Source: an uncultured Methanosarcinales archaeon
Lineage (GTDB): Archaea; Nanobdellota; Nanobdellia; Woesearchaeales; 21-14-0-10-32-9
Assembly: GCA_964501945.1 (NCBI GenBank)
Contig: CAZCTY010000001.1
Location: 49,187-113,186 of the forward strand
Direction of reading: 5' to 3'
DNA length: 64,000 nt
Shown here: piece after piece, positions 12,155-58,336 of the stretch
Layout of the letters: the number at the start of each line of letters is the position of its first letter
Position numbering within the stretch: position 1 is the stretch's first letter
Position numbers and translations under genes: made by a program
The notes under the pieces: generated by a model
What the model was told of the DNA's origin: nothing
Seen by the model: only the letters and a program-made list of their open reading frames with translations
The model's database searches: none

Positions 12155-12931
12155 TTAGTAAATCTCAACCCAAAAGTAATAAGGCGTTGTATCGCTATTT
12201 CCGAATTGGCCATTTTCAGCAACTAATAATTGAAAATCATAATCGCCACCATCATAACCATCTTTACCTTGCCTTGCACCTTCAGCCCTATCTTCTATTA
12301 TAGATGTAAAGATTAAAGCATCATTTTCATCAGTTAATAAAACAGCAGGAAAATCTCTTTCCGCCTCAGGATCTTCTTGCCTTTCACTATCAACAAAAGT
12401 ATAAGTAGTCCTACAACCATTAACAGTCGTAAAACCAACATAAAACTCAGGATGGCTAGTATAAGGATATGTTATGTTAATATTATCATAGTCTGTATCA
12501 AGCATCCCATAATAATCATACCACATACCTCTAAAAGTATCATCTTCTATATCTGCACAACCAACACTAGTCCAAGAAATAGTGTTATTTACAGACGCAT
12601 AAACTTGACCTTGAGGCTCAGCCGCAGACCAGTCATAAAACCTCATACCAGAAGAATCTTCTAATATGATTGTACCTGACACGTTCCCAAAGAAACCTTG
12701 CCAGCTCTTTGTCTGAGATACACCTGTGATGTTTAGCTCCGTTAAATTACCTGCTAGCGCAGGAACCATAGCTGCAGGGTACAGGCTCGTGTTAGAAGTT
12801 TCACTTCTTATAACAGTCGCGTTTTCAGCACCTAATGGCGCGTTAAACCCGTCGTTAGCAGAAACCAAACCTCCAAAAGCTATGATAAAAAGGCTTGCTA
12901 ACATTGCAATTTTAAACATTTTGACATTCAT
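12155..12931 (-). CDS. Secreted protein, cassette family C (copy C1); distant relative of family B
   Basis: The signal peptide ends in VSANDG. Shared motifs are SWQGFFGNVSG, FYDWSAAEPQGQVYASVNNTISWTSVGCADIEDD and the C-terminal TPYYFWVEIY. It is a paralog of 54009..54731. Confidence 0.7.
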   Translation of the reverse strand: MNVKMFKIAMLASLFIIAFGGLVSANDGFNAPLGAENATVIRSETSNTSLYPAAMVPALAGNLTELNITGVSQTKSWQGFFGNVSGTIILEDSSGMRFYDWSAAEPQGQVYASVNNTISWTSVGCADIEDDTFRGMWYDYYGMLDTDYDNINITYPYTSHPEFYVGFTTVNGCRTTYTFVDSERQEDPEAERDFPAVLLTDENDALIFTSIIEDRAEGARQGKDGYDGGDYDFQLLVAENGQFGNSDTTPYYFWVEIY

Positions 12932-13163
12932 TTTGATTTTTCACCTCTCGGTTTTTTTTATTGATCACGCACAAACCACGTAAACTCATATACAAATATG
13001 TATACTGATATATAAATCTTTCGAAAGGGGTTGGTTTTTCATCCTAAAAAATCAAAATTTTCAAGAAAGAAAGCCCAAAAACAAAAAATACATCAAAAGA
13101 AGAATATTTAACCAAAACAGAAGAAATAGACGAAGAACATATAAAGATATAAAAAAGAAACTA

Positions 13164-45459: not shown

Positions 45460-48443
45460 TTTAATTTCTTCAACTCATCACCAAGCAATAAAACTTGATC
45501 CTTGAAACTTTTTTGAATATCAACATCAGCCTTATTGAAAACATCAGATAAAAGATTGTAAGTTTTAATAGCATCATCTACACTGCCTTCTTTTTGAGAG
45601 GCATGCACGCGATTAATTAAATATTCAATGTACTTTTCATTTAATAAATTCACAAGTAAAGAAATATCGTCATATACCTGATTTTTAATTTTTCCAGGAG
45701 CATTTTCATACAACATTTTAATTTCTTTGTATATAAGATTCGCACGCTCTAAATTCTGAATTTCCAAATAATCTTTAGCATCATTTATGAGAACCTTCAA
45801 CTCTTTCATCTTACGATCACTTCTAAAATTATTAACAAAACCAAACAACTTATCTTTAACATTAAAGGCATAAAACAAATAAGCCAAAACCAATATTATC
45901 AACAATAAAAACAAACCAGTGGTATGATCAACATCTCCAGCTCTTGAAGTTACCATGCCTGTAAAACTAGGAATATTGCTTCTAGAACTACTAGAAGAGA
46001 ATGCGTCCCCACCCAAAAGCAAAGTATGGGCTTTTTTAACATCATCTAAAGAAGAATGACCAACAGAGTAATAAGTTATAAAATCTGGCTTTTCTAAAAC
46101 CAATAATTCATTTCTTATAAGAGAGTCATGACTTTGCAACACAGTCAAATCAGAACGTAAATTCTCAGGCACACTTTCCAATAAAAATTGATCCCTTTTA
46201 GTCTCGCCAGTATACTCAACAGTTTTATGAACTAAAGTAATATCTTTAGTAGACCCATCCAAATAAGTAATAGTTAAATGAGCAGTGAAAGTACGAGTTC
46301 TAAAAAGATTTTGAAGCCTTTCAACTTCCCTCATGTTAACGCCGCCTTGAAGATTCCTATTTTCAAAATAAGCACTAGCAATCTCTTCCAATTCATCAGA
46401 GTCAGGATACGCAATGAACTCCTCAGATTTTTCAAGCTCAATTAATAAAGGCGTTTCTTTTTCTAATTCACGAATCAAATCTTTATATTCCTCAATTCTC
46501 TCCTCTTTTTGAACATCACTTAAATCTCGTCTCAAAGCCAAACTATTAATATCTCTTAAAATACGCTCATAATCCCTTAAACTAACTCTGAGCGTTTCCT
46601 CAACATTTAAAGCATCAGCAGCCCTTCTCGCCTCAAGCTCTAAATCATTAAAATTATCATTAGCGTTCTCAATTTTTCTCCTCAACTCACCAGCATCAAT
46701 TATATCAGATATATCATCCGCGGTAGTTGCTGAAAAACTTTCTTGAGACGCTGAAACACTCAAATCACGTACCTCAGAATCCTCATCACCACAACTAATC
46801 TGCCAACTATACTCCCCGTCATCAAGCTTTTCAACAAAAGATAGAGAGCCTTCCTTAACATCTTCTTTTTTAGCAAGATCTGCAAACCAAGAACTACCTT
46901 TTTCAGCAATTAAAAGACTACAAGTTTTTTCTTCTTCTAAAGATAAAATAGCTTCAAAACTCACTTCCTCGCGGGAGATAGATGCGCCAGCCTCAGGTGA
47001 CTGCAAAAATATAGGTGAGGTGCTATCGCTCGTGCTACTTGGGGAGGACTCAATTTTATCTAACCTAATTGTCACAGATAAATCTTCATCTAATTCAATG
47101 TCTTGATTTCTACTTGAATGACCCTCACCGCCAACTCTTAAACGATAATCATCTTCACGAAGCCTGAAAGTTACACGGCCATTACTATCAGTAAAATCAG
47201 ATTTTCTCAAATCAACAATTTGAACATCAGCATCTTCCATTACATTATTTTCATGATCTCTAACTTCAACAACCAAATCATAATACCTATCAACATCAAT
47301 TTCAAAATCTTTAACTTTCCTATTACCGCGAGAATCAACAACGATTAAAGAAACTTCGTGGGATCCAGCACTGGAGAAAGACAAATCAACCTCATCATCA
47401 GATTCAGTTTCGCCATCAAACTCCCAAGTATATTCATAAGGAGAAATACCTCCTGAAGCACTAGCTTTCAAAGTTATTTCTTCATCAACTTCCAAATCTT
47501 TTTTTCCACTCAAAGAAATATCAATAGTGTTCGTTACTTTGTATGAAACATTATGAGTAACACCAGATTCTTTTAAAATAAAATCAAGCCTATAATCTCC
47601 TGCGACGAATGCTTTTTCAAAATCAATTTTTTGCCACAACTTACCATCTTTATTGATGTTCAAATTATCAATTGTGAACTCTTCAGATTTTTCTAAGGTT
47701 TCAAAGTTAGGATTTTTCTCAGAACGCAACCAAACCTTTAATTCAAATTCTAAACCTTCCTCGCCATGAACTAAAAGATAACCTTCCTCGCCAAGAGAGA
47801 AATTTTTATCACTCAACTCAACATAAAAAGGCTCAACCACATCAACCTTTCTAATAACTTGCATAGGAGTATAATTTTCATTTTCATTGAACCTAGCGGT
47901 GATTTCATAAGTTTTGAAATCTTCAAATTTTTCACTTGACGATAATTTTGAAGCATTAGCTTTGCTCAAAACAACCTCGCCATCAATTAATAATTCTAAT
48001 TCGCCTTTAACATCAGAATCTATAGATATGTTTACAGTTTCATTTCTAAAAACAGTCAAATCTTCTGTTTTACCATTTAAAGATAAATTAAGTTTCGGCG
48101 TGGCTTTTTCAATTTCATAATTACCGGAAATATTAGTTGTGTTAGTTTCATTTCCTTTTTCCCACAAGTAATTATATTCTCCAGCGCTTAAATCATCTAT
48201 ATTTACCAAATAAGAATTTCTTTCTTTGTCATAATCAACTTTTTCCCTTGATAAAATTACTAATTTATCTTTAGATAGCTTAAACCAAACAGTATCGTTT
48301 AACTCTTCTAAATCAAGCATAAAATCATAAGATTTATCAGGCTCATAAACAGGAGATTCAGGATGGACATTACTAATAGCTGAAATAGTTGGAACTAATA
48401 GCAATATCATTAAAGTTGCCAGATAAAATATTTTGTTTTTCAT
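45456..48443 (-). CDS. 995-aa type I membrane protein with PKD-like and carboxypeptidase-regulatory-like extracellular domains, a TM helix and a cytoplasmic tail of about 130 aa
   Basis: The signal peptide ends in LLLVPTISAIS. A PKD-like segment is GGISPYEYTWEFDGETESDDEVDLSFSSAGSHEVSLIVVDSRGN. A CarboxypepD_reg-like segment is YDLVVEVRDHENNVMEDADVQIVDLRKSDFTDSNGRVTF. The TM is TGLFLLLIILVLAYLFYAF. Four-nucleotide overlaps occur at both ends. Confidence 0.75.
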   Translation of the reverse strand: MKNKIFYLATLMILLLVPTISAISNVHPESPVYEPDKSYDFMLDLEELNDTVWFKLSKDKLVILSREKVDYDKERNSYLVNIDDLSAGEYNYLWEKGNETNTTNISGNYEIEKATPKLNLSLNGKTEDLTVFRNETVNISIDSDVKGELELLIDGEVVLSKANASKLSSSEKFEDFKTYEITARFNENENYTPMQVIRKVDVVEPFYVELSDKNFSLGEEGYLLVHGEEGLEFELKVWLRSEKNPNFETLEKSEEFTIDNLNINKDGKLWQKIDFEKAFVAGDYRLDFILKESGVTHNVSYKVTNTIDISLSGKKDLEVDEEITLKASASGGISPYEYTWEFDGETESDDEVDLSFSSAGSHEVSLIVVDSRGNRKVKDFEIDVDRYYDLVVEVRDHENNVMEDADVQIVDLRKSDFTDSNGRVTFRLREDDYRLRVGGEGHSSRNQDIELDEDLSVTIRLDKIESSPSSTSDSTSPIFLQSPEAGASISREEVSFEAILSLEEEKTCSLLIAEKGSSWFADLAKKEDVKEGSLSFVEKLDDGEYSWQISCGDEDSEVRDLSVSASQESFSATTADDISDIIDAGELRRKIENANDNFNDLELEARRAADALNVEETLRVSLRDYERILRDINSLALRRDLSDVQKEERIEEYKDLIRELEKETPLLIELEKSEEFIAYPDSDELEEIASAYFENRNLQGGVNMREVERLQNLFRTRTFTAHLTITYLDGSTKDITLVHKTVEYTGETKRDQFLLESVPENLRSDLTVLQSHDSLIRNELLVLEKPDFITYYSVGHSSLDDVKKAHTLLLGGDAFSSSSSRSNIPSFTGMVTSRAGDVDHTTGLFLLLIILVLAYLFYAFNVKDKLFGFVNNFRSDRKMKELKVLINDAKDYLEIQNLERANLIYKEIKMLYENAPGKIKNQVYDDISLLVNLLNEKYIEYLINRVHASQKEGSVDDAIKTYNLLSDVFNKADVDIQKSFKDQVLLLGDELKKLK

Positions 48444-48709
48444 TTTTTAAGCTCCATTATTATGTTTTGAAGTTCTTCAAGCAATTTTTCTTTGTCTTTA
48501 GTTTCTTTTGTGTTTGAAATTTTCTGTTCTAATTGCTCTCTCATTTTTTGCACTTCGTATTTGTAGGGGGATTGATGCTGCTCACATTTTTTTCTTATGA
48601 TTGTTCTTATTTGCTCAGATAAATCTAAGTAATGATTTTCTTGGGCGAGCTCTTTTAATTCTTGAACTAACGTATTCGGGAGACGTATGCTCACAACTGT
48701 ATCTTTCAT
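48440..48709 (-). CDS. Ribbon-helix-helix transcriptional regulator (89 aa) with coiled-coil tail
   Basis: MKDTVVSIRLPNTLVQELKELAQENHYLDLSEQIRTIIRK is an RHH fold pattern. There are ATGA overlaps with the upstream RHH ORF and with the downstream 995-aa gene. Confidence 0.55.
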   Translation of the reverse strand: MKDTVVSIRLPNTLVQELKELAQENHYLDLSEQIRTIIRKKCEQHQSPYKYEVQKMREQLEQKISNTKETKDKEKLLEELQNIIMELKK

Positions 48710-48870
48710 ATCTCGCCCCCTCTTCGTTTAAGTTTTTGTTCTTGAACGTATTCGCGTAAGAATTCTCTGATTGCCTCAGATCTAGAACTGAATGTTTTTT
48801 CTTCAAGCAGAGGCTCGAGCCTTTTGAGAAGTTCTTTTGGCACCCTCACGTTTATTACTTCGGTTTTCAT
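48706..48870 (-). CDS. Ribbon-helix-helix transcriptional regulator (54 aa; below the ORF-track cutoff), first gene of the long minus-strand gene string
   Basis: Translated by hand from the minus strand: MKTEVINVRVPKELLKRLEPLLEEKTFSSRSEAIREFLREYVQEQKLKRRGGEI. This is a classic CopG-like RHH. Its TGA overlaps the ATG of the next RHH gene. Confidence 0.5.
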   Translation of the reverse strand: MKTEVINVRVPKELLKRLEPLLEEKTFSSRSEAIREFLREYVQEQKLKRRGGEI

Positions 48871-49132
48871 TATTGTCCTCAAAAAAACACTGCGTTAAAA
48901 CAAATTGTGTGTTTTTTGTAGTTTTTTATATGATTTTTGTATGACAAATGTAAGACATTTTATACCATTTTTGTATATTTGTATTACAAATGTGTGCTTT
49001 TTATACTTTTTTTGTGTGATGATAGTATATAAATGTTTTGGTTTTTAGAGAATAAAACAAAATTTACAATATGGAAAATAATTAAAAATTATTTATAAAA
49101 AAGAATTTAAACAAAACAAATATTATGATTGT
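48871..49132. promoter_or_regulatory. Divergent promoter/operator region with a repeated TTTTTGTAT / ACAAAT(T)GTGTG motif array
   Basis: acaaattgtgtgttttttgta (about 48899), atttttgtatgacaaatgt (about 48933) and atttttgtatatttgtattacaaatgtgtgc (about 48967). The TTTGTA/TACAAA half-sites are mutually inverted. TATA-like tttataaaa lies about 35 nt before the 49133 ATG. Confidence 0.4.
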
Positions 49133-49843
49133 ATGTTTGAGCCAAAAACTGTTTTTAAAAAAAACTTTCTTATATTAATTTTTATAATTCTATTAATGGT
49201 CCAAGTTCAAGCAAACGAATTATACGCAGATATAGAAATAAGACTAAATCAGAGAGGGGATGCAATAATTACAGGTGTGACAAATCACCCAACGCTTATA
49301 GGAACCTATAAAGACATGACTTCAAAACAAGAACAATACTGGCTTTTTAACTTAACAAAAGAAAATTTCACTAGCGCACTTTTTCGCATAGATTTCCCTG
49401 AAGATGTTATCATAACATATATAAGAAGCACAGCACGAATAAATATTGGAGCTGATGACGCGCCTTTTATTAAAGGAACATTAAGAAATAAACCACTAGA
49501 AATAATAGTACAATACTATTTTGACGAACCTTCTGAAGTGAGAACAAACTATTTACAAATAATAATCAGCACTATACTTATATTATTAGGAATATATATA
49601 ATGTTTTTTCATAAAAAGAAAAAAGAGAGTATAAAAGAAGAAAAGGGTCTAAGCGAGAGACAAAAAAAAATTATAGAACTTCTGGGAAAAAAAGACGGCG
49701 TAACACAAAAATACATAGAAGAAAAATTAAACTTGCCAAAATCATCAATTTCAAGAAACATATCAACACTTGAGAGAAAAGGCATAATAAAAAAAATAAC
49801 AAAAGGATTTAGCAACACAATATATTTGAATAAAAACAAATAA
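49133..49843 (+). CDS. Membrane-tethered winged-HTH transcriptional regulator (extracytoplasmic domain, TM helix, cytoplasmic wHTH)
   Basis: N-terminal signal/TM (FLILIFIILLMVQVQA). An ectodomain of about 130 aa. The TM is ISTILILLGIYIMFF. The cytoplasmic tail LSERQKKIIELLGKKDGVTQKYIEEKLNLPKSSISRNISTLERKGIIKK is a MarR/ArsR-type wHTH. Confidence 0.6.
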   Translation: MFEPKTVFKKNFLILIFIILLMVQVQANELYADIEIRLNQRGDAIITGVTNHPTLIGTYKDMTSKQEQYWLFNLTKENFTSALFRIDFPEDVIITYIRSTARINIGADDAPFIKGTLRNKPLEIIVQYYFDEPSEVRTNYLQIIISTILILLGIYIMFFHKKKKESIKEEKGLSERQKKIIELLGKKDGVTQKYIEEKLNLPKSSISRNISTLERKGIIKKITKGFSNTIYLNKNK

Positions 49844-49850
49844 ACGAGGA

Positions 49851-49921
49851 GTTCCACCTACTTACTAGTTGTTCCGCTAAGTTCCGGGCAAAAACTATAT
49901 GCTGTTCCACCTTACTAATAT
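49851..49921. promoter_or_regulatory. Array of four GTTCC direct repeats (two extended copies GTTCCACCT(AC)TTACTA)
   Basis: gttccacctacttactag at 49851, gttccgctaa at 49871, gttccgggca at 49881 and gttccaccttactaatat at 49904. They lie between the wHTH gene and the 49957 ATG. Confidence 0.35.
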
Positions 49922-49956
49922 TGTCAAACCCCAAAAAGGGATGCGAGGTGAAAAAA

Positions 49957-50838
49957 ATGAGAAATATAACAAAAACATTTCTTGTGGCTTTTACTTTGTT
50001 ATTAGCTTTGCCATTAACCATGGCACAAGCAGATATAACAAATGAAGTCGGACAAGAAACTAATGCACGCGAGGTAATGCCTTTTGAAACAATTCATGGC
50101 GCAGAAATGAGATTGCTACAATTAGAGAGAGCAATACACAGAAATATATTAAACGGCGAAACAATAATTGAAAGCCTTGATGCAGAATTAGAAAATGAAA
50201 CAATTATAGAATTAGAAGCAATTCTTCAAAGCATGATTGACTTAAAAGAAGAAGTATCTGCATACGAAGTAGGCACAGAAGACGATGTTGAAAATTTTGT
50301 GAGCTTTAGACAAGAAGCATCAGCCCTAACAAAAGAATTTAGAGACACAGTGAGAGAAACCGTTGATGAGGAAAGAGCACAAGAAATTAGAACCGCTGCA
50401 AATGAGCGAGCAAGAGATGCCATAGCGGAGTACCAAGAAAACATAAATGAGCGCGCTAGGGCACACAACGAAGAAATAACACAGAGAAGAATAGAAGTTC
50501 AAGGAATTATTAGCGAAGACTTACTTGAGAAAATAAGAACTGGAGAAATAGAACCTCAACAAATAAGAGAAGAAGTACTGAATCTAGTTAGAGAAAACCT
50601 AGGAGAACAAGCTAGTGACGCAATAGAAAACATGCGCGAGGATGCACTCAGGCAAGAGATAACTGCTAGAGAAAACATAAATAGAATAAGAGAAGAAGTC
50701 CTAGAAAATAATACGGCGCGAGCAAAAGAGAGAATCCAAGAAGTAAGAGATAGACTGCCTGATGATTTAGAACAAAACATTAGCGAGAGAATAAAAGATT
50801 TAAATGAGAGAATACAAAATAGAGGAGGGATAAGATGA
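49957..50838 (+). CDS. Secreted coiled-coil protein (E/R-rich)
   Basis: The ATG at 49957 follows GAGGTGA. The signal peptide MRNITKTFLVAFTLLLALPLTMAQA is followed by a long E/R/I-rich helical region. The track's TTG at 49921 would add 12 aa before the signal peptide. Confidence 0.6.
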   Translation: MRNITKTFLVAFTLLLALPLTMAQADITNEVGQETNAREVMPFETIHGAEMRLLQLERAIHRNILNGETIIESLDAELENETIIELEAILQSMIDLKEEVSAYEVGTEDDVENFVSFRQEASALTKEFRDTVRETVDEERAQEIRTAANERARDAIAEYQENINERARAHNEEITQRRIEVQGIISEDLLEKIRTGEIEPQQIREEVLNLVRENLGEQASDAIENMREDALRQEITARENINRIREEVLENNTARAKERIQEVRDRLPDDLEQNISERIKDLNERIQNRGGIR

Positions 50839-51029: not shown

Positions 51030-52250
51030 TCAAAACTTTTTTCTTTTTTTCTTTTTTTCTTTTCTCAAAATCAAAAAAACCAACAAGAAAAATATAACAA
51101 CTAAAACAGAAAAGAACCAAACAATGAAATCAACACTCCCAGCTACACTACCTTCTTCATCAAAGTTAACATTAATAATAGTACCCCTCTCATAAGAAAC
51201 CCTGTTATTAAAATGAACCCTACCAGAAACCCTGTACTGACCAGAATCATCAGGCGAGAAAAACGAATCCAACTCAACCTCCGAGTCAGGAGGAACATTA
51301 ATAACATCAGATTCTACGATCTCAATAACCCTATCATCTTTTGTTACAGTTCCTTTAAACTGAGCACTCACAGTTCTAGAACCTTCGTTTTTAAAAGTAG
51401 CAATAATCGGAACAATTTCACCAACAGAAGCCCACGTTTTAGCACTAACTTTTTCTAAAACCCCTGTATCACTAATACCACCACGCTCTAAAACACTAAA
51501 TGTAATCATAGACCTAGAACCACAAACGGGCTCAGAAACCTCGGCCCAATACTGACCAGGATCTAAATCAAGATTAAAAGAACCCTCAATTAAAGAAGTC
51601 CTAGTAGGAATTATATCTTCGTTATGGCTATAAGTATATTCTTTGACTACCTCATCTTGCATTTGAGAAAACACTTTAACATCAAAAGCAGGAGAATACC
51701 TAACATTACCAGTATTTCTAACCCTCGCAGAGATAACATTTTCCTCATCAATTTCAACATCACTAATATCTAAACCACCAGCAGTACAAGAAACAATTTG
51801 AGTATCAGTAATATTGATGAGAACATCAACCTCAAATGCAACAACGACATTAGAACCCATAGCAGAACTAACATTACCAAGTGCGCCAGTACTAATAAAA
51901 ACAGTGCCCTCATAAGAATCAACACGAGCATCACTAGGAGGCTCAACCATCACCGAAATAACACCAGGATCACCTTCACTCACAAAAAAACTACCCTCGG
52001 ATGGCTCAAAACTAATCCAATCAGCAATCTCACCACGCGCCTCAAAGAAAACAAAGACATCATCAGGACGACCAATACTAACAATAATTTCTTCTTCAGC
52101 AAAACCCCCTCTTAAAACATTATCAAACGTAACAGATGCACGATTAACACCAAGAATAGCAGCATCAACAAAAGATGCACTAAATAAAATAAAAACTAGA
52201 ACAATAAATACAAAAACCAAATTAGCAAACACTTTTTTATTCATCATCAC
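51030..52250 (-). CDS. Surface protein with C-terminal TM anchor and poly-K tail
   Basis: The signal peptide ends in FSASFVDAA. The beta-rich ectodomain is followed by a C-terminal TM (VDFIVWFFSVLVVIFFLLVFLIL) and then RKEKKKKRKKF. Confidence 0.6.
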   Translation of the reverse strand: MMMNKKVFANLVFVFIVLVFILFSASFVDAAILGVNRASVTFDNVLRGGFAEEEIIVSIGRPDDVFVFFEARGEIADWISFEPSEGSFFVSEGDPGVISVMVEPPSDARVDSYEGTVFISTGALGNVSSAMGSNVVVAFEVDVLINITDTQIVSCTAGGLDISDVEIDEENVISARVRNTGNVRYSPAFDVKVFSQMQDEVVKEYTYSHNEDIIPTRTSLIEGSFNLDLDPGQYWAEVSEPVCGSRSMITFSVLERGGISDTGVLEKVSAKTWASVGEIVPIIATFKNEGSRTVSAQFKGTVTKDDRVIEIVESDVINVPPDSEVELDSFFSPDDSGQYRVSGRVHFNNRVSYERGTIINVNFDEEGSVAGSVDFIVWFFSVLVVIFFLLVFLILRKEKKKKRKKF

Positions 52251-52391
52251 ACAAAAACAAACAAGCTTTTTTTAAATCTTCCTGAAATTACAAGCCAAGA
52301 GAAAAATCTAACAAAATATCTTGACTAATATTCTCAACGTCTTTTACATAATCTTTCATAATATCAAACCTCCCACAAAAAAATATAATAT

Positions 52392-53267
52392 TTAAGGAAC
52401 TGTAGCAGTAAACCTCAAAGTACCAACACACTCCCCGAAAGGATTAGGCGGCACGAATAACCTCCAATAAAGTGACGATTCAACAGGTGAGGTAGCATCA
52501 GTAGGCTGCAAAAGAGTAATACCAACATCCTGATAATCAGAACTCAACGCAGTTTTTTCCTCCCACAAATTGTCAGTGTCTAAAGAAAAACGCTGATTTT
52601 CAACAGTTATGTTAGAACCCTCATCACAAACCAAACCTAAACCATCACCTTCCTCAACGCCATAACCTAAGACACTAACATTAATATCAACATTACCAAA
52701 ATTAGTAATGGACGATAAAACATCAGGACTGTAATCTAAAACAGATAAGTCTCCATAATCAATAGTATCAGTAACATTGAGAGCATATAATTCATTTATA
52801 GTCGTCTCATTTTCCAAAGAGTCAACAAAACCAAAAGAATCCTCAGCACTCACATTACAAACCCAATCACCATTATTAGCATAATGCAAAACCTCAAATG
52901 TACATGAAGAATAAGCTATGTACTCCCCATCATTATCATAAATCTCACAACTACTATTAGTATAATGAAGATTACCATCATCAACGTCACCACTAAAACT
53001 GTCAGGCTCATAAAAGAAAGTTCCATTAACAGCAATTACATCTTCCCAACCATTCCAATCACGAATAGATGCATTACAATAAACAGTCTTCACGCCTCCA
53101 GCATTAAGAGTTATGTCCTCATCAACAATAACTTCTAAAATCTCAGGCACCGCATTAGTAATGTTTGCCCTCGTGATAACATCAACGTCTTCATAATTAT
53201 AAGCGCTAACGCTACTTATAAGAAGCACTAAGCTAAACACTGCAAACGTTAATATATTAAATTTCAT
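52392..53267 (-). CDS. Secreted protein, cassette family A (copy A2)
   Basis: Paralog of 10441..11340 (KTVYCNASIRDWNGWEDVIAVNGTFF, HYTNSSCEIYDNDGEYIAYSSCTFEVLHYANNGDWVCNVSAEDSFGF, CVGTLRFTATVP). Confidence 0.7.
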   Translation of the reverse strand: MKFNILTFAVFSLVLLISSVSAYNYEDVDVITRANITNAVPEILEVIVDEDITLNAGGVKTVYCNASIRDWNGWEDVIAVNGTFFYEPDSFSGDVDDGNLHYTNSSCEIYDNDGEYIAYSSCTFEVLHYANNGDWVCNVSAEDSFGFVDSLENETTINELYALNVTDTIDYGDLSVLDYSPDVLSSITNFGNVDINVSVLGYGVEEGDGLGLVCDEGSNITVENQRFSLDTDNLWEEKTALSSDYQDVGITLLQPTDATSPVESSLYWRLFVPPNPFGECVGTLRFTATVP

Positions 53268-54749: not shown

Positions 54750-55322
54750 TTAAGTTATCATCCTCTTACTAATTTTATGAGGATCGTAAATAGGATAGTA
54801 GCTTTCTTGAGATGCCTCAACATCACCAACAGTGATTTCTTCAACACCCAAACCATCAACTAATTTTTTTGAAACATTATCCTTGAAAATTATTTTAACA
54901 CTTGATTTAGGAGATTCTTCAACAAAAATCCCAGCTATTTGATCGATGCTTTCTTTTAACGCGAAGTACGTTTTTTCTATTTCCTCGTGCTTGTTACTGT
55001 ATGGATAGAGCCAAATTTTAATCAAAGCTTTTTTGTGCTCGTCAATACTGATCATTTTTTTCTCAACGAAACCATCAGCTGTTACAATTAAGTAAGCATT
55101 ATCTTTCGCGATGCTATAAACAACTCTTGGCTGGCCCTTGTCACGATTACTTATTCTCTCACTTTTTACGATGTTTGCAAGCTCGAGGAATCTTAATGAT
55201 TGGCTGATGTTTGACATTGAAGTATTTGCAAGCTTTGCCAATTCTAAAGGTGATTTTTTTTCTCGAGCTAACGCTTTCAAAATGTTCCATTTTGCGCTTG
55301 TAAAAAGTGTCTCTTGATCCAT
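54750..55322 (-). CDS. Winged-HTH transcriptional regulator (ArsR/MarR-like N-terminal domain plus C-terminal domain), first gene of the C2-B2-A2 cassette
   Basis: The start is taken at the internal ATG MDQETLF (the track ORF extends to 55385). The wHTH segment is AKWNILKALAREKKSPLELAKLANTSMSNISQSLRFLELANIVKSERISNRDKGQPRVVYSI. Confidence 0.6.
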   Translation of the reverse strand: MDQETLFTSAKWNILKALAREKKSPLELAKLANTSMSNISQSLRFLELANIVKSERISNRDKGQPRVVYSIAKDNAYLIVTADGFVEKKMISIDEHKKALIKIWLYPYSNKHEEIEKTYFALKESIDQIAGIFVEESPKSSVKIIFKDNVSKKLVDGLGVEEITVGDVEASQESYYPIYDPHKISKRMIT

Positions 55323-55515
55323 TTTTGCTCTTTTTTCTCTCCTAAACAAACACAAAAATGCGTCTTTTAAGCCACGTATATACAAAATCGTTGCTTGTGG
55401 CTTTTAGTATACATTTTTGTATTCTGATTTAATCAATGTGATAGCTCATATTTAAATGTTTCGTTTTTTACAATAAAATTTAATTTGTAGAAGTTGAAAA
55501 TAAACAAAAATAAAG

Positions 55516-55593: not shown

Positions 55594-56349
55594 TCAATAA
55601 ATTTCTGCAAAGAAATAATAAGTTGTAGGATCGGCAGCAGTCGGATCTTCAGGAACAATTAATTGAAAATCATAAAACTGAGAATCATAACCAACTTGAG
55701 CTTGCTCTATTAACGATGCAAAAACCAAATTACTAGATCCATCTTCAAGCAAAATTTCCTGGAAACTAGACTCGACAGACGGCTCTTGCCTAGCATCATC
55801 AACGTAAGTTGCAATAGCTCTACAAGAACTTTCAACTATTTGAGTGGTTCCAACAAAGAAACTCCTATGAATTGTTTCGTTAAACGTTCTATTTATACTA
55901 TCAGCACTCTCATCATCAATATTCAAATTGAGTTGCTCACTTAATATGCTCTGCTCACTCGCACAATCTATGCTTGCCCAATCAATATCTTCATGACGTG
56001 TAACATAAACTTGACCTGAAACAGTGACTAAATCCCAATCATAAATAGATTGGCTGCTCGCATCTTGCAGAGCAAGTCTACCGGAGACGTTACCAACATA
56101 CGCTTTCCAACGAGGAGTTTGAAAAGTACCATTTAAAACAAGCGTAGTAAATGTTCCGCCAGCAGTAGTTAACTCGGCAGCAGGCTCAGGAGTAATAGTT
56201 TCAGTTTCGTTTAGTGATATATCTACACCGGCAGGCTGAGCACTAACACTGCTTGAAATATTTAAAGCCCCAAAAGAGCTTGTTATGAGTAAAACTAAGA
56301 GGAATACAATAACTAATTTCTCCATCCGCAAATTAGTCGCTTTACTCAT
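55594..56349 (-). CDS. Secreted protein, cassette family B (solo copy B3) inside the IR-bounded segment
   Basis: The signal peptide ends in SVSAQPAG. Motifs PRWKAYVGNVSGRLALQDASSQSIYDWDL, IDWASIDCAS and the C-terminal TTYYFFAEIY. Confidence 0.7.
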   Translation of the reverse strand: MSKATNLRMEKLVIVFLLVLLITSSFGALNISSSVSAQPAGVDISLNETETITPEPAAELTTAGGTFTTLVLNGTFQTPRWKAYVGNVSGRLALQDASSQSIYDWDLVTVSGQVYVTRHEDIDWASIDCASEQSILSEQLNLNIDDESADSINRTFNETIHRSFFVGTTQIVESSCRAIATYVDDARQEPSVESSFQEILLEDGSSNLVFASLIEQAQVGYDSQFYDFQLIVPEDPTAADPTTYYFFAEIY

Positions 56350-56845
56350 TTTTTACACCTTTTTTATCGAGCTTTTTTTTGGCCCTGCTCAAAACAGTCC
56401 AAACAGTTTTCTCATTTTTTCCTAAAATTAAAGCAATTTTTTTAACACTAAATCCAAGATTTTTCAAATACAGAGAAACAGACTCTAAAACAGACAATTC
56501 TCTATTTTTTAGAACATCACTACTTATGCTGACGGTTGGGCAAGAATTGTTTTCCTTGAAGAAAATTTGCTTGGATTTGGCTTTGTTGTAAGTTACCCAA
56601 ACAGTTCTTTGATCTCGGTTAATTAAAGAACCTATCTTAGAGTATTGCATAGAATGTTGCTCTTTTAGATATTTTACAATCGCCTCTAAACCGCTAAGTC
56701 CTTGTCTGAAAATCTCGCAAGGAATACTTATTTTGATGCCTTCATCAATGTTTTGAAGGTTTTGATTGAAATTATTTTGCGAGATGGAGAGCTCCATTTT
56801 GCTTTCATAAGAATTTTTATCAATAGAGCTCTCTGTAAAAAACAT
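56342..56845 (-). CDS. Small regulator with two tandem sigma70-region-4/LuxR-like HTH modules
   Basis: The two internal repeats are LSGLEAIVKYLKEQHSMQYSKIGSLINRDQRTVWVTYNKAKSK and LSVLESVSLYLKNLGFSVKKIALILGKNEKTVWTVLSRAKKKL. It overlaps B3 by 8 nt. Confidence 0.55.
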   Translation of the reverse strand: MFFTESSIDKNSYESKMELSISQNNFNQNLQNIDEGIKISIPCEIFRQGLSGLEAIVKYLKEQHSMQYSKIGSLINRDQRTVWVTYNKAKSKQIFFKENNSCPTVSISSDVLKNRELSVLESVSLYLKNLGFSVKKIALILGKNEKTVWTVLSRAKKKLDKKGVKNE

Positions 56846-57078: not shown

Positions 57079-57262
57079 ATTAAATTTATTGTTTAATGAA
57101 GTATTGTGGTTTATGAAGTGTTGTGTTTTTTAAAATATTGTTTTTTTATAATTATTGTGGGATATGTAATTGTGAATTAGCGGTATTGTGGACGAGAAAA
57201 ACTAAAAAAAACAATTTATGCGTAGAAAAAACTAAAAAATAAGAATGAAAAACAACGAAAAA

Positions 57263-58336
57263 TCAATTTTTATGATTATCAAAAGGCTCTAAGAAATTAC
57301 TAAGTTGTTGATTTACCATGATAAAAGTCGTACGCTTACTAAACTCACGCAGATTCCTCGCACCGATATAAGTTCCCGTACTACGAAGAGAACCAAGAAC
57401 TTCCTGAACGAAATTATTAACGTCGCCTTTGTAAGGCACCTCTGTAGTTCTACCTTCGCTCGCGCGATGCTCATCAACTTTTCCGTAGAATTTGTTCATA
57501 GCGGTTTTTGAGCTCATCCCGAAGTGTTCTTTGAATTTTTGACCATTCTTTTCAATCAAGTCTCCTCCGCTCTGCTCATAACCTGCAAACATAGAACCAA
57601 CCATGACAAAGTCAGCTCCACCACCAAAAGCCTTTGCAATACACGAAGGGCTGGTAATTCCTCCATCACTCATAATTCTCCCAGCGCCTTCTCCTTTGCT
57701 TATGCCGTGAGCAGCGTCTCCGCATTCTATTACTGCGCTTAGCTGAGGATAGCCAACACCTGTTTGTTTTCGCGTTAGACAAGCACTACCACTCCCAATA
57801 CCAATTTTTACTATGTCTGCCCCTTCTAATAATAATTGTTCTGTTATCTCATTTGTTACAACGTTACCAGCAATTATTATATGCTCAGGGCATAAGCTTC
57901 TGAGTTTTTTTACTGCGCCTGAAAATCTTTCTAAGTATCCGTTAGGAACATCTAAACAAAGAAAGCTAAAGTTATCTAACAATTTTTTTTCTTTCATAAA
58001 ATGTAATTTTTCAAAGTCCTCATCTCTAATACCTAAGGTGTATGCTACATAATCAGGATTGTTAAATTCTTGAAAGAATTTTTCAAATTCTTCAACGGAG
58101 TAAAATTTATGAAAAGCAGTAATCATTTTGTGTTTGCTTAACGCATGCGCCATGCCAAACGTTCCTGAAGTTGCCATGTTCGCCGTGATTATAGGAATAC
58201 CGGTCCAAGTCTTAGGCGAGTGTAAGAATTTAAATGTACGCTCTAAAACAACATCTTTTCTAGATGTTAGGGTGCTTCGCTTCGGCCTTATTAATACGTT
58301 CGAAAAATCTAACTTGGGTTCATGATCTATTCTCAT
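57263..58336 (-). CDS. guaC: GMP reductase
   Basis: The protein aligns along its whole length with GuaC (LDFSNVLIRPKRSTL, GIPIITANMATSGTFGMA, CLDVPNGY, IIAGNVVT, GADIVKIGIGSGSACLTRKQTGVGYPQLSAVIECGDAAHG, SDGGITSPSCIAKAFGGGADFVMVGSMFAG). It is 357 aa and has no CBS insert. Confidence 0.88.
   Translation of the reverse strand: MRIDHEPKLDFSNVLIRPKRSTLTSRKDVVLERTFKFLHSPKTWTGIPIITANMATSGTFGMAHALSKHKMITAFHKFYSVEEFEKFFQEFNNPDYVAYTLGIRDEDFEKLHFMKEKKLLDNFSFLCLDVPNGYLERFSGAVKKLRSLCPEHIIIAGNVVTNEITEQLLLEGADIVKIGIGSGSACLTRKQTGVGYPQLSAVIECGDAAHGISKGEGAGRIMSDGGITSPSCIAKAFGGGADFVMVGSMFAGYEQSGGDLIEKNGQKFKEHFGMSSKTAMNKFYGKVDEHRASEGRTTEVPYKGDVNNFVQEVLGSLRSTGTYIGARNLREFSKRTTFIMVNQQLSNFLEPFDNHKN

What the first reader, a model, noticed from the sequence alone, without database searches (positions are those of the whole stretch)
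48871..49132. Divergent control region with an array of TTTTTGTAT / ACAAATGTGTG motifs between the gene-string promoter and a membrane-tethered wHTH regulator gene
At least three TTTTTGTAT copies and two ACAAAT(T)GTGTG copies occur, with TTTGTA/TACAAA half-sites in inverted orientation. Related TATACAAA/TTTGTATA inverted pairs occur upstream of C1 (12989..13004) and upstream of the wHTH gene at 55376..55424. These could be operators for the RHH or wHTH proteins that control the surface loci.
Basis: seen in the sequence. Interest (0 to 1): 0.55.

Follow-up and report, generated by a model that had tools for sequence, protein, structure and literature searches.

The report
Helically phased operator array, RHH operon
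The repeated TTTGTAT-type words are real. They form a strongly conserved 118-bp array of about eleven boxes, one per DNA helical turn, next to the promoter of a 33-kb surface-protein operon in an uncultured archaeon. The array is most likely a binding platform for the two small ribbon-helix-helix repressors encoded at the head of that operon.

Summary

**What is there**
- 48871-49132 is the divergent spacer between an RHH gene (48706-48870, minus strand) and a membrane-anchored wHTH gene (49133-49843). The RHH gene heads an RHH-RHH-giant-surface-protein operon.
- Exact TTTTTGTAT occurs twice, not three times. ACAAAT(T)GTGTG occurs twice.
- The structure is 48903-49020: about 11 boxes (consensus TTTGTAT, invariant core TGT), all on one strand. 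The period is 10.6-10.8 bp, with a 41-42-bp super-repeat.

**Why it is not chance**
- Across five orthologous loci the array is 80% identical, while four-fold sites of the flanking genes are saturated (15-45%).
- The array is absent elsewhere in the window.
- It follows the RHH operon in 11 of 11 loci, including four with no adjacent wHTH gene.
- In two loci it is inverted and lies upstream of the TATA box, which rules out an RNA leader element.

**Promoter elements, all distinct from the boxes**
- A canonical BRE/TATA for the operon lies at 49026-49041 (minus strand), so the array spans about -16 to +101.
- A separate palindrome, Box B, lies at 49063-49078.
- A leaderless wHTH promoter lies at 49100-49113.

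**Best reading:** cooperative, CopG-like binding on one face of the helix by RHH1 and/or RHH2. Binding is inferred, not shown.

The parts
48903..49020 (+). Phased box array S1-S11. The T-rich strand is the + strand; in the direction of operon transcription the boxes read ATACAAA. Eleven-mers start at about 48902 (S1 AAATTGTGTGT), 48913 (S2 TTTTTGTAGTT), 48924 (S3, degenerate TTTTATATGA), 48934 (S4 TTTTTGTATGA), 48945 (S5 CAAATGTAAGA), 48956 (S6, TTTTATACC here but TTTGTTACC/TTTGTGACC in orthologues), 48968 (S7 TTTTTGTATAT), 48976 (S8 TATTTGTATTA), 48987 (S9 CAAATGTGTGC), 48998 (S10 TTTTTATACTT) and 49009 (S11 TTTTTGTGTGA).
   Evidence: Site table. 80% mean pairwise identity in 5 lineages against 15-45% at four-fold sites. 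Period 10.6-10.8 bp with 0-3/500 shuffles. TRF periods 11 and 41. PWM hits of 8 bits or more: 8 on one strand here, and no other cluster in 64 kb.
48977..48991 (.). 15-bp palindrome ATTTGTA-T-TACAAAT, centred on box S8. It is the best-conserved box and the candidate primary (nucleation) site.
   Evidence: S8 TATTTGTATTA identical in 4 of 5 lineages, one change in L005. TGTAATACA is invariant in 9 type-I loci. A GTAATACAAAA copy sits between TATA and ATG in the type-II loci L171 and L173.
49026..49041 (-). Canonical archaeal BRE/TATA of the RHH-led operon. It reads CCAAAACA-TTTATATA on the minus strand. The predicted TSS is about 49003 (+/-3), which gives a leader of about 133 nt.
   Evidence: Matches the consensus RAAANNTTTAWATA derived from about 12 other promoters of the window. 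Invariant AAA-CAAAA-ATTTA-ATA in 9 loci, at -160 to -172 from the ATG in 8 of them. The TSS is inferred from the 27-30 nt TATA-to-ATG spacing of the leaderless wHTH genes.
48876..48880 (-). Shine-Dalgarno-like GAGGA, 5 nt upstream of the RHH1 ATG.
   Evidence: Read directly. GAGGA/GGAG is conserved in orthologues.
49063..49078 (.). Box B, a second and different palindrome: TTTACAATATGGAAAA here, and perfect TTTC-N-ATAT-N-GAAA in L004, L005 and L088. It is centred about 41 bp upstream of the operon TATA and about 62 bp upstream of the wHTH ATG.
   Evidence: 83% mean pairwise identity. Unique in the window and present only at the orthologous position among 167 loci. Retained in L168, where the neighbour is gyrA rather than the wHTH gene.
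49100..49113 (+). BRE/TATA of the wHTH gene (AAAGAA-TTTAAACA). The ATG lies 27 nt after the first T, so the mRNA is leaderless or nearly so.
   Evidence: TTTAAAC/TATATAAA lies 27-30 nt upstream of the ATG in L004, L005, L006 and L088.
48706..48870 (-). RHH1, 54 aa, first gene of the operon. The beta-strand KTEVINVRVP has invariant N7 and R9.
   Evidence: Pfam RHH_1 E 9e-8. PDB profile hits to NikR RHH domains, E 4e-5. Alignment.
48440..48709 (-). RHH2, 89 aa. Its start overlaps the RHH1 stop (ATGA). It consists of an RHH-like N-terminal half plus a long C-terminal helix.
   Evidence: Pfam RHH_1 E 0.004, below the cut-off. Family members carry PF01402. Cross-hit to RHH1, E 3e-4. The AF2 monomer shows an extended N-terminus, helices 12-24 and 27-46, and a long helix 48-88; pLDDT 71.
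49133..49843 (+). 236-aa membrane-anchored regulator. It has an N-terminal signal/TM segment, an extracytoplasmic domain of about 110 aa, a TM helix and a cytoplasmic C-terminal wHTH.
   Evidence: Pfam DUF7343 E 6e-10 and MarR_2 E 6e-8. Alignment of 18 homologues. MarR-family PDB hits.

Best explanation
The array is a DNA-level operator platform for the promoter of the RHH-led giant surface-protein operon.

**Shown**
- About 11 TGT-core boxes lie on one strand, one per helical turn (10.6-10.8 bp).
- They are interleaved with phased T-tracts.
- They start about 6 bp after a canonical BRE/TATA (49026-49041, minus strand) and run about 118 bp toward the RHH1 start codon.
- The whole block is under stronger constraint than the neighbouring genes.

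**Inferred**
- RHH1 and/or RHH2 are translationally coupled and may form a hetero-oligomer. RHH2 carries a long C-terminal helix that could mediate higher-order contacts.
- They nucleate at the best-conserved box S8, the palindrome ATTTGTATTACAAAT.
- They then spread cooperatively along one face of the curved DNA, as CopG does over four turns.
- This would cover the TSS and the initially transcribed region and shut off their own 33-kb operon (negative autoregulation).
- Box B (49063-49078), upstream of the BRE, is a separate site for another factor, possibly the membrane-anchored wHTH protein. It could couple an external signal to both divergent promoters.
For: 1. **Phylogenetic footprint.** The array is 80%, BRE/TATA 83% and Box B 83% mean pairwise identical. 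Spacers are 34-49% and four-fold sites 15-45%.
2. **Helical phasing.** The phasing is significant in each lineage, and TRF finds periods of 11 and 41 bp.
3. **Phase-preserving deletion.** A 22-bp (two-turn) deletion in L169 removes two boxes and keeps the phase.
4. **Box, not palindrome, is conserved.** Substitutions that break the palindrome regenerate direct in-phase boxes.
5. **Co-inheritance.** The array accompanies the RHH-RHH operon in 11 of 11 loci. These include L168 (gyrA neighbour), L169, L171 and L173, which have no adjacent wHTH gene.
6. **Reading residues.** The RHH beta-strand residues are invariant.
7. **Precedent.** Four CopG dimers bind sites one helical turn apart on one face of the DNA (PMC2724298). 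Up to eight ParG dimers are thought to coat degenerate boxes in direct or inverted orientation separated by AT-rich spacers (PMC3130281). The archaeal-virus RHH repressor SvtR is proposed to polymerise along DNA toward BRE/TATA, and it represses its own promoter and that of a large structural-protein gene (PMC5569661).
8. **Curvature.** A wedge model puts the array in the top 2-3% most curved 120-bp stretches of the window (parameters recalled from memory).
Against: - No binding, footprint or TSS data exist.
- The promoter, and therefore the '-16 to +101' placement, is predicted from consensus only.
- A conserved TATAAAAA (S10) could be a second TATA box, which would change the geometry.
- RHH2's RHH assignment is below Pfam's cut-off in this protein.
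- Eleven turns is far longer than characterised RHH operators with one-turn spacing (CopG has four).
- Direct 11-bp repeats also fit head-to-tail winged-helix binding.
- The binding unit (direct 11-mer, ACA-WW-TGT or TGTA-N-TACA) cannot be decided from sequence.
- Only one sequence family supplies the comparison: 11 loci, of which 9 are type I.
Confidence: 0.55

Rival explanations
1. The membrane-anchored wHTH protein, not the RHH proteins, binds the array. It would bind head-to-tail on the 11-bp direct repeats, in the manner of PhoB/OmpR/ToxR-type winged-helix factors on phased direct repeats. This would tie operon expression to an extracytoplasmic signal.
For: - The wHTH gene is the divergent neighbour in 7 of 11 loci.
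- Direct repeats with an 11-bp period are the classic geometry of tandem winged-helix binding (own knowledge of pho boxes and ToxR sites, not checked here).
- The protein is a bona fide wHTH with a conserved recognition helix PKSSISRN.
Against: - The array persists where the wHTH gene is not adjacent: L168, L169, L171 and L173.
- 126 upstream regions of distant family members with the same recognition helix show no enrichment of any of the boxes.
- The wHTH is MarR/TrmB-like, a class that usually binds palindromes as dimers. Box B fits that better.
Confidence: 0.2
2. The array acts mainly through DNA shape. Phased T-tracts would make an intrinsically curved, histone- or chromatin-protein-positioning or promoter-enhancing segment. 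The TGT cores would then be incidental to curvature rather than read by a specific regulator.
For: - T-tracts are phased at 10.7 bp (0-2 of 500 shuffles in four of five lineages).
- The wedge model predicts a bend of about 97 degrees, in the top 2-3% of the window.
Against: - Curvature needs only phased A/T tracts. Here specific G and C positions (TGT, TACA) are invariant across 9 loci, while the neighbouring A/T positions vary.
- Other 120-bp stretches of the window are predicted to be more curved but have no such conservation test.
- The array is unique in 64 kb.
Confidence: 0.12
3. The conserved block works as RNA. It would be a structured or protein-bound 5' leader of the operon mRNA (A-rich, with AUACAAA repeats), or a small RNA gene.
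For: - In type-I loci the block lies between the predicted TSS and the SD, so it is probably transcribed.
- The palindromes could form small hairpins.
Against: - There is no Rfam hit.
- RNAalifold gives -2.9 and -9 kcal/mol with penalising covariation terms, and substitutions break the pairs.
- The 10.7-nt period is that of B-DNA.
- In L171 and L173 the array is inverted and lies upstream of the only canonical TATA box, directly after the preceding gene. It therefore cannot be the same RNA.
Confidence: 0.05
4. It is a chance AT-rich repeat or generic promoter sequence with no specific function.
For: Within the single sequence, overall repeat content is not significant (P 0.08-0.34). Single PWM hits occur about once per 1.7 kb per strand.
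Against: - 80% identity where neutral sites are saturated.
- Phasing is significant in independent lineages.
- The boxes differ from the genome's BRE/TATA consensus.
Confidence: 0.02

Closest known systems
CopG (pMV158) operator at promoter Pcr
   Same: A small RHH repressor is encoded as the first gene of the operon it represses. Its operator consists of sites one helical turn apart on one face of the DNA, nucleated at a pseudosymmetric primary site, with cooperative spreading and DNA bending (PMC2724298).
   Different: CopG uses four sites (about 4 turns) overlapping a bacterial sigma-70 promoter. Here there are about 11 boxes over 118 bp, placed downstream of an archaeal BRE/TATA (or upstream and inverted in two lineages). 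There are also two different RHH proteins, one with a long C-terminal helix. Binding is not shown here.
ParG on the OF operator and parH centromere (plasmid TP228)
   Same: An array of about 100 bp holds 8-12 degenerate short boxes (ACTC), in direct or inverted orientation, separated by AT-rich spacers. Each box is thought to take one RHH dimer, and the dimers coat the DNA cooperatively. Orientation of individual boxes is tolerated (PMC3130281).
   Different: The ParG period is 8 bp (4-bp box plus 4-bp spacer) and parH is not intrinsically curved. Here the period is 10.7 bp with phased T-tracts. There is no ParA-type partner or partition context.
SvtR / AvtR, RHH regulators of archaeal viruses
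   Same: These are archaeal RHH repressors of their own promoter and of a promoter for a very large structural-protein gene. They are proposed to polymerise along DNA toward BRE/TATA (PMC5569661).
   Different: They are viral proteins with a single high-affinity imperfect inverted repeat plus degenerate sites. No regular helically phased multi-box array is described for them. There is no sequence similarity of sites.
ToxR/CadC-type membrane-bound one-component regulators
   Same: A transmembrane protein has a cytoplasmic winged-helix domain, encoded next to surface-related genes and an AT-rich direct-repeat region (own knowledge).
   Different: Here the wHTH is MarR/TrmB/DUF7343-like and C-terminal, not OmpR-like and N-terminal. 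Nothing shows that it binds the array.

Membership tests
Autoregulatory RHH (CopG/Arc/MetJ-type) operator | An RHH DNA-binding protein is encoded in the regulated operon. | tested here: met
   RHH1: Pfam RHH_1 E 9e-8, above the cut-off, and NikR RHH hits E 4e-5. RHH2 is weaker (E 0.004), but family members carry PF01402.
Autoregulatory RHH (CopG/Arc/MetJ-type) operator | Repeated subsites lie at a fixed spacing that allows dimer-dimer cooperativity (one helical turn in CopG and Arc). | tested here: met
   Period 10.6-10.8 bp, 0-3/500 shuffles. TRF period 11. A 22-bp deletion keeps the phase.
Autoregulatory RHH (CopG/Arc/MetJ-type) operator | The operator overlaps or abuts the operon's own promoter. 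| tested here: inconclusive
   The array begins about 6 bp from a canonical, invariant BRE/TATA. The promoter and TSS are predicted, not mapped.
Autoregulatory RHH (CopG/Arc/MetJ-type) operator | The RHH protein physically binds the boxes and represses transcription. | not testable with these tools
   Needs EMSA or footprinting and in vitro transcription.
Archaeal core promoter elements (BRE/TATA) | Match to the genome's own consensus RAAANNTTTAWATA, 27-30 nt upstream of the TSS. | tested here: not met
   The boxes (TTTGTAT, ACAAATGT) do not match. The mid-array 'TTTTATACC' is TTTGTTACC/TTTGTGACC in orthologues. True BRE/TATA elements lie at 49026-49041 (minus strand) and 49100-49113 (plus strand).
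cis-regulatory RNA leader / small RNA | A conserved secondary structure with compensatory changes, and a fixed orientation downstream of a promoter. | tested here: not met
   No Rfam hit. No supported consensus fold. Inverted and upstream of TATA in L171 and L173.
RHH centromere (ParG/omega type Ib partition site) | An adjacent ParA-type ATPase and a plasmid or partition context. | not tested
   No ParA-like gene was seen among the called neighbours, but no dedicated search was made. The only ATPase domain noted is DUF87 inside a 1377-aa surface-operon protein.
ToxR-like membrane-bound transcription factor system | An OmpR-type N-terminal wHTH, a single TM segment and a periplasmic sensor. | tested here: not met
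   The wHTH is C-terminal and MarR/DUF7343-type. The membrane anchoring itself is met.

The most novel reading that the evidence does not exclude
The array is the scaffold of an extended nucleoprotein switch. An RHH1-RHH2 hetero-oligomer would wrap about 11 turns of curved DNA to silence a 33-kb giant surface-protein (host-contact) operon in a DPANN-like archaeon. The neighbouring membrane-anchored wHTH sensor, acting at Box B, would relieve or reinforce it in response to an external (cell-contact) signal. The array module can be flipped relative to the TATA box (type I versus type II loci) without loss, so it would act by architecture rather than simple occlusion.
Probability: 0.15. Interest if true: 0.7.

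Novelty: new variant of a known kind. Interest (0 to 1): 0.45.

Why it matters
- No transcriptional regulation in DPANN-type archaea came up in this work, and giant surface-protein operons are presumed to mediate attachment to hosts.
- Here a complete, testable control region emerges from comparative sequence alone. It comprises two promoters, a helically phased 11-box array, a second palindrome, two RHH proteins and a membrane-bound wHTH.
- If the RHH proteins do coat the array, it would be one of the longest regularly phased RHH operators known.
- It would also be a defined handle on how such cells switch a 33-kb surface locus on and off.
- If not, the finding is still a clean example of a phylogenetic footprint that separates operator boxes from BRE/TATA in an AT-rich genome.

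Tried and rejected
- **tRNA and Rfam scans of the window:** nothing.
- **RNA structure of the array on either strand:** weak energies, no covariation.
- **Small protein in the array** (47-aa + strand ORF at 48905-49048): rejected, because L004 has a 1-nt insertion inside it.
- **Boxes as tandem TATA boxes:** rejected, because the mid-array TTTTATAC is not TATA-like in orthologues. S3 is only an A-tract in most loci.
- **wHTH autoregulation motif shared across the family:** 126 de-duplicated upstream regions of distant homologues show no enrichment of TTTGTAT, ACAWWTGT, TGTANTACA, Box B or ATACA-N4-TGTAT. Only one of them has a divergent RHH.
- **Near-identical strains** (L001-L003): uninformative.
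- **Scan of IMG/VR for the invariant 18-mer TTGTATATTTGTATKACA:** 26 hits, all with unrelated flanks and no array, so chance or unrelated.
- **Bacterial promoter/terminator scan:** at chance level.
- **'Control' intergenic regions** chosen as neutral references turned out to hold their own conserved elements. Four-fold sites and the non-conserved spacers were used as the neutral benchmark instead.
- **Organism names** could not be obtained. The DPANN assignment rests only on the taxonomy of distant family members.
- **E. coli NikR half-site GTATGA** (recalled from memory) resembles TGTATGA in the boxes. The DNA-reading residues differ, however, so this is treated as coincidence.

Full report
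**Setting**

The window is AT-rich (about 34% G+C). Positions 15191-48870 on the minus strand hold an uninterrupted string of genes for very large proteins of 995 to 2469 aa. These carry PKD, CARDB, Big and CarboxypepD_reg domains.

Two small overlapping genes head the string:
- RHH1 (48706-48870, 54 aa; Pfam RHH_1 E 9e-8).
- RHH2 (48440-48709, 89 aa; RHH_1 E 0.004, below cut-off). Homologues carry PF01402, and it cross-hits RHH1.

On the other side of the 262-bp spacer lies 49133-49843. This is a 236-aa protein with an N-terminal hydrophobic segment, a conserved domain of about 110 aa, a second hydrophobic helix followed by KKKK, and a C-terminal DUF7343/MarR-type wHTH.

**The observation**

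- Exact TTTTTGTAT occurs twice in the spacer (48934, 48968), not three times.
- ACAAATGTGTG occurs once, and once more with an extra T.
- There is one genuine palindrome, ATTTGTA-T-TACAAAT (48977-48991), with an imperfect copy 42 bp away.
- Against dinucleotide shuffles of the spacer itself, the chosen words are moderately over-represented (P 0.003-0.013). Overall repeat content is not (P 0.08-0.34).

On this sequence alone the case is weak.

**Related loci**

Protein searches with the wHTH protein and RHH2 gave syntenic loci at graded distance:
- L004 (wHTH 66% identical), L005 (53%), L006 (50%), L088 (49%), L172 and L174.
- Four loci in which the RHH-RHH-PKD operon has other neighbours: L168 (gyrA), L169 (an HTH_5 cluster), and L171 and L173 (the end of an upstream co-directional gene; SpoIIM in L171).

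Four-fold degenerate sites of RHH1, RHH2 and the wHTH gene are only 15-45% identical between lineages, which means they are saturated. In the same comparisons:

| Segment | Mean pairwise identity |
|---|---|
| 48903-49020 (array) | 80% |
| 49021-49047 (BRE/TATA) | 83% |
| 49064-49083 (Box B) | 83% |
| Stretches between them | 34-49% |

The array is more conserved than the coding DNA around it.

**Anatomy**

Laid out by helical turns, the conserved block is a series of about 11 boxes on the + strand with consensus TTTGTAT and an invariant TGT core.
- Boxes S1, S2, S4, S5, S7, S8 and S9 are strong.
- S6 is intact in three of five lineages.
- S3 and S10 are TTTTTATA variants, and S11 is YGTR.
- Start-to-start spacings are 11, 21, 11, 23, 8, 11 and 22 bp.

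Fourier analysis gives a period of 10.6-10.8 bp for TGT, TGTA and TTTT. In most lineages only 0-3 of 500 shuffles reach the observed power. The same holds for TACA/TGTA in the six loci added later. TRF independently reports an 11-bp period (48905-48943) and a 41-bp period (48936-49015).

Two evolutionary events are telling:
- In L006 and L088, ACAAAT became ACATTT. This destroys the palindrome but creates a further direct TTTGTAT in phase.
- L169 has lost exactly 22 bp, which is two boxes and two turns.

A PWM built from the strong boxes finds eight hits of 8 bits or more on one strand of the array, and no other cluster in 64 kb.

**Promoters**

Upstream regions of about a dozen other genes in the window share RAAANNTTTAWATA. 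The spacer contains two such elements.

The first is CCAAAACA-TTTATATA on the minus strand (49041 to 49026).
- It is invariant in nine loci.
- It lies 160-172 nt from the RHH1 ATG in eight of them.

The second is AAAGAA-TTTAAACA on the plus strand (49100-49113).
- It lies 27 nt before the wHTH ATG.
- Orthologues show the same 27-30-nt spacing, which implies a leaderless mRNA.

Applying that spacing to the minus-strand TATA puts the operon's TSS near 49003. The array would then span about -16 to +101, followed by an SD (GAGGA, 48876-48880). This is inference, because no TSS data exist. A conserved TATAAAAA in S10 could be a second TATA box.

The boxes themselves are not BRE/TATA. The mid-array TTTTATACC is TTTGTTACC or TTTGTGACC in orthologues.

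**Box B**

Between the two TATA boxes lies a different palindrome: TTTC-N-ATAT-N-GAAA, perfect in L004, L005 and L088 and with one mismatch here (49063-49078). It is unique in the window and occurs only at the orthologous position among 167 loci. It is kept at about 45 bp from the operon TATA in L168, where the neighbour is gyrA. It therefore belongs to the operon's promoter region.

**DNA or RNA?**

- Rfam finds nothing.
- RNAalifold gives negligible energies and penalising covariation terms on both strands.
- In L171 and L173 the array aligns with the window's + strand. It lies on the RHH coding strand, directly after the preceding gene and upstream of the only canonical TATA. One extra GTAATACAAAA copy sits between that TATA and the ATG.

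An element that works in either orientation, upstream or downstream of the TATA box, with the period of B-DNA, acts as DNA.

**Who binds?**

This is not shown. The case for the RHH proteins is as follows.
- The array accompanies the RHH pair in 11 of 11 loci, but the wHTH gene is adjacent in only 7.
- Distant wHTH homologues with the same recognition helix have none of the motifs upstream.
- The RHH beta-strand residues (RHH1 ..NVR.., RHH2 ..S[IV][RK]..) are essentially invariant.
- RHH2 has a predicted 40-residue C-terminal helix suited to oligomerisation (pLDDT 71).

The literature provides precedents:
- CopG dimers bind four sites one turn apart on one face of the DNA (PMC2724298).
- ParG coats arrays of degenerate boxes in either orientation (PMC3130281).
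- The archaeal-virus RHH repressor SvtR is proposed to polymerise toward BRE/TATA (PMC5569661).

Phased T-tracts predict intrinsic curvature. A wedge model puts the array in the top 2-3% of the window with a bend of about 97 degrees (parameters recalled from memory, so indicative only).

The wHTH protein remains a serious rival for the array and a natural candidate for Box B.

ATACA-N4-TGTAT occurs exactly twice in the window.
- 12990-13003 lies 7 nt after the TATA of gene 12155-12931.
- 55409-55422 lies about +6 to +19 relative to the predicted start of the ArsR-type gene 54750-55322.

These sites share the TGTAT half-site with the array, but in a different arrangement. In the one orthologue available (L169) only the left half is conserved. 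A common regulon is possible but unproven. Single PWM hits are about 4-fold denser in intergenic than in coding DNA, which composition alone might explain.

**Verdict**

This is a real, strongly constrained cis-regulatory array. It is best explained as a CopG-like, one-face cooperative operator of the RHH-led surface operon.
- Confidence that it is a protein-binding DNA element: about 0.85.
- Confidence that the RHH proteins are the binders and repress: about 0.55.

It is a new variant of a known kind and of moderate interest.

Noticed in passing
window 49844-49956: The spacer between the wHTH stop and the next gene (49957-50838) holds four conserved GTTCC(G/A) boxes. Three lie upstream and one downstream of a TATA-like AAAAACTATATG. 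They are conserved in L004, L005, L006 and L088, and look like a second, unrelated operator array.
   Followed up: partly
window ~52303-52377 (minus strand): A micro-ORF of about 24 aa (MKDYVKDVENISQDILLDFSLGL) lies between genes 52392-53267 and 51030-52247. It is conserved at the protein level in L005, L006 and L088 and was not called as a gene in the source assemblies.
   Followed up: no
window 12990-13003 and 55409-55422: The 14-bp palindrome ATACA-N4-TGTAT occurs exactly twice in 64 kb. Each copy lies just downstream of a canonical TATA box (genes 12155-12931 and 54750-55322, the latter ArsR/HTH_5-type). Only the left half is conserved in L169.
   Followed up: partly
L171 2646-2846; L173 181-362: In the two most divergent RHH operons the whole box array is inverted and lies upstream of the TATA box, with one extra GTAATACAAAA box between TATA and ATG. 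This gives two promoter architectures built from the same module.
   Followed up: yes
L169 (alignment A10, columns 212-233): A 22-bp deletion removes exactly two boxes (two helical turns) from the array.
   Followed up: yes
L001 position equivalent to window 49096: A near-identical strain carries T->C in the TATA-like TATTTATAAAA upstream of the wHTH promoter. L002 and L003 have an extra A in the A-run near 49113.
   Followed up: no
L169 335-664: Three copies of AAAATACAAAAACAC-like words lie upstream of the HTH_5 gene orthologue. This suggests that ATACAAA boxes recur at other promoters of this lineage.
   Followed up: no
upstream regions of distant wHTH homologues (loci L008-L167): A word resembling ATGTCGTTTCAGGAAGAAACTTTAATAATC is strongly enriched; for example, 26 of 126 loci share CCTGAAAC or CGTTTCAG. 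It is probably the 5' end of a conserved divergent neighbour gene.
   Followed up: no
L022 3903-4000: In an Altiarchaeota MAG a wHTH homologue also has a divergent RHH gene. The 98-bp spacer holds two TATGTATAT boxes about 25 bp apart.
   Followed up: no
L168 1-2549: The gyrA gene next to the RHH operon in this relative contains an intein (Intein_splicing and LAGLIDADG_3 hits).
   Followed up: no
window 57151-57290: The wedge model marks this intergenic stretch, upstream of gene 56342-56845, as the most curved DNA in the window (predicted bend about 150 degrees). That upstream region also shows repeated CCCTACATAATAAGTATT / CTTACATAATAAGCATTT / CCCCACATAATAAGTATTT words.
   Followed up: no
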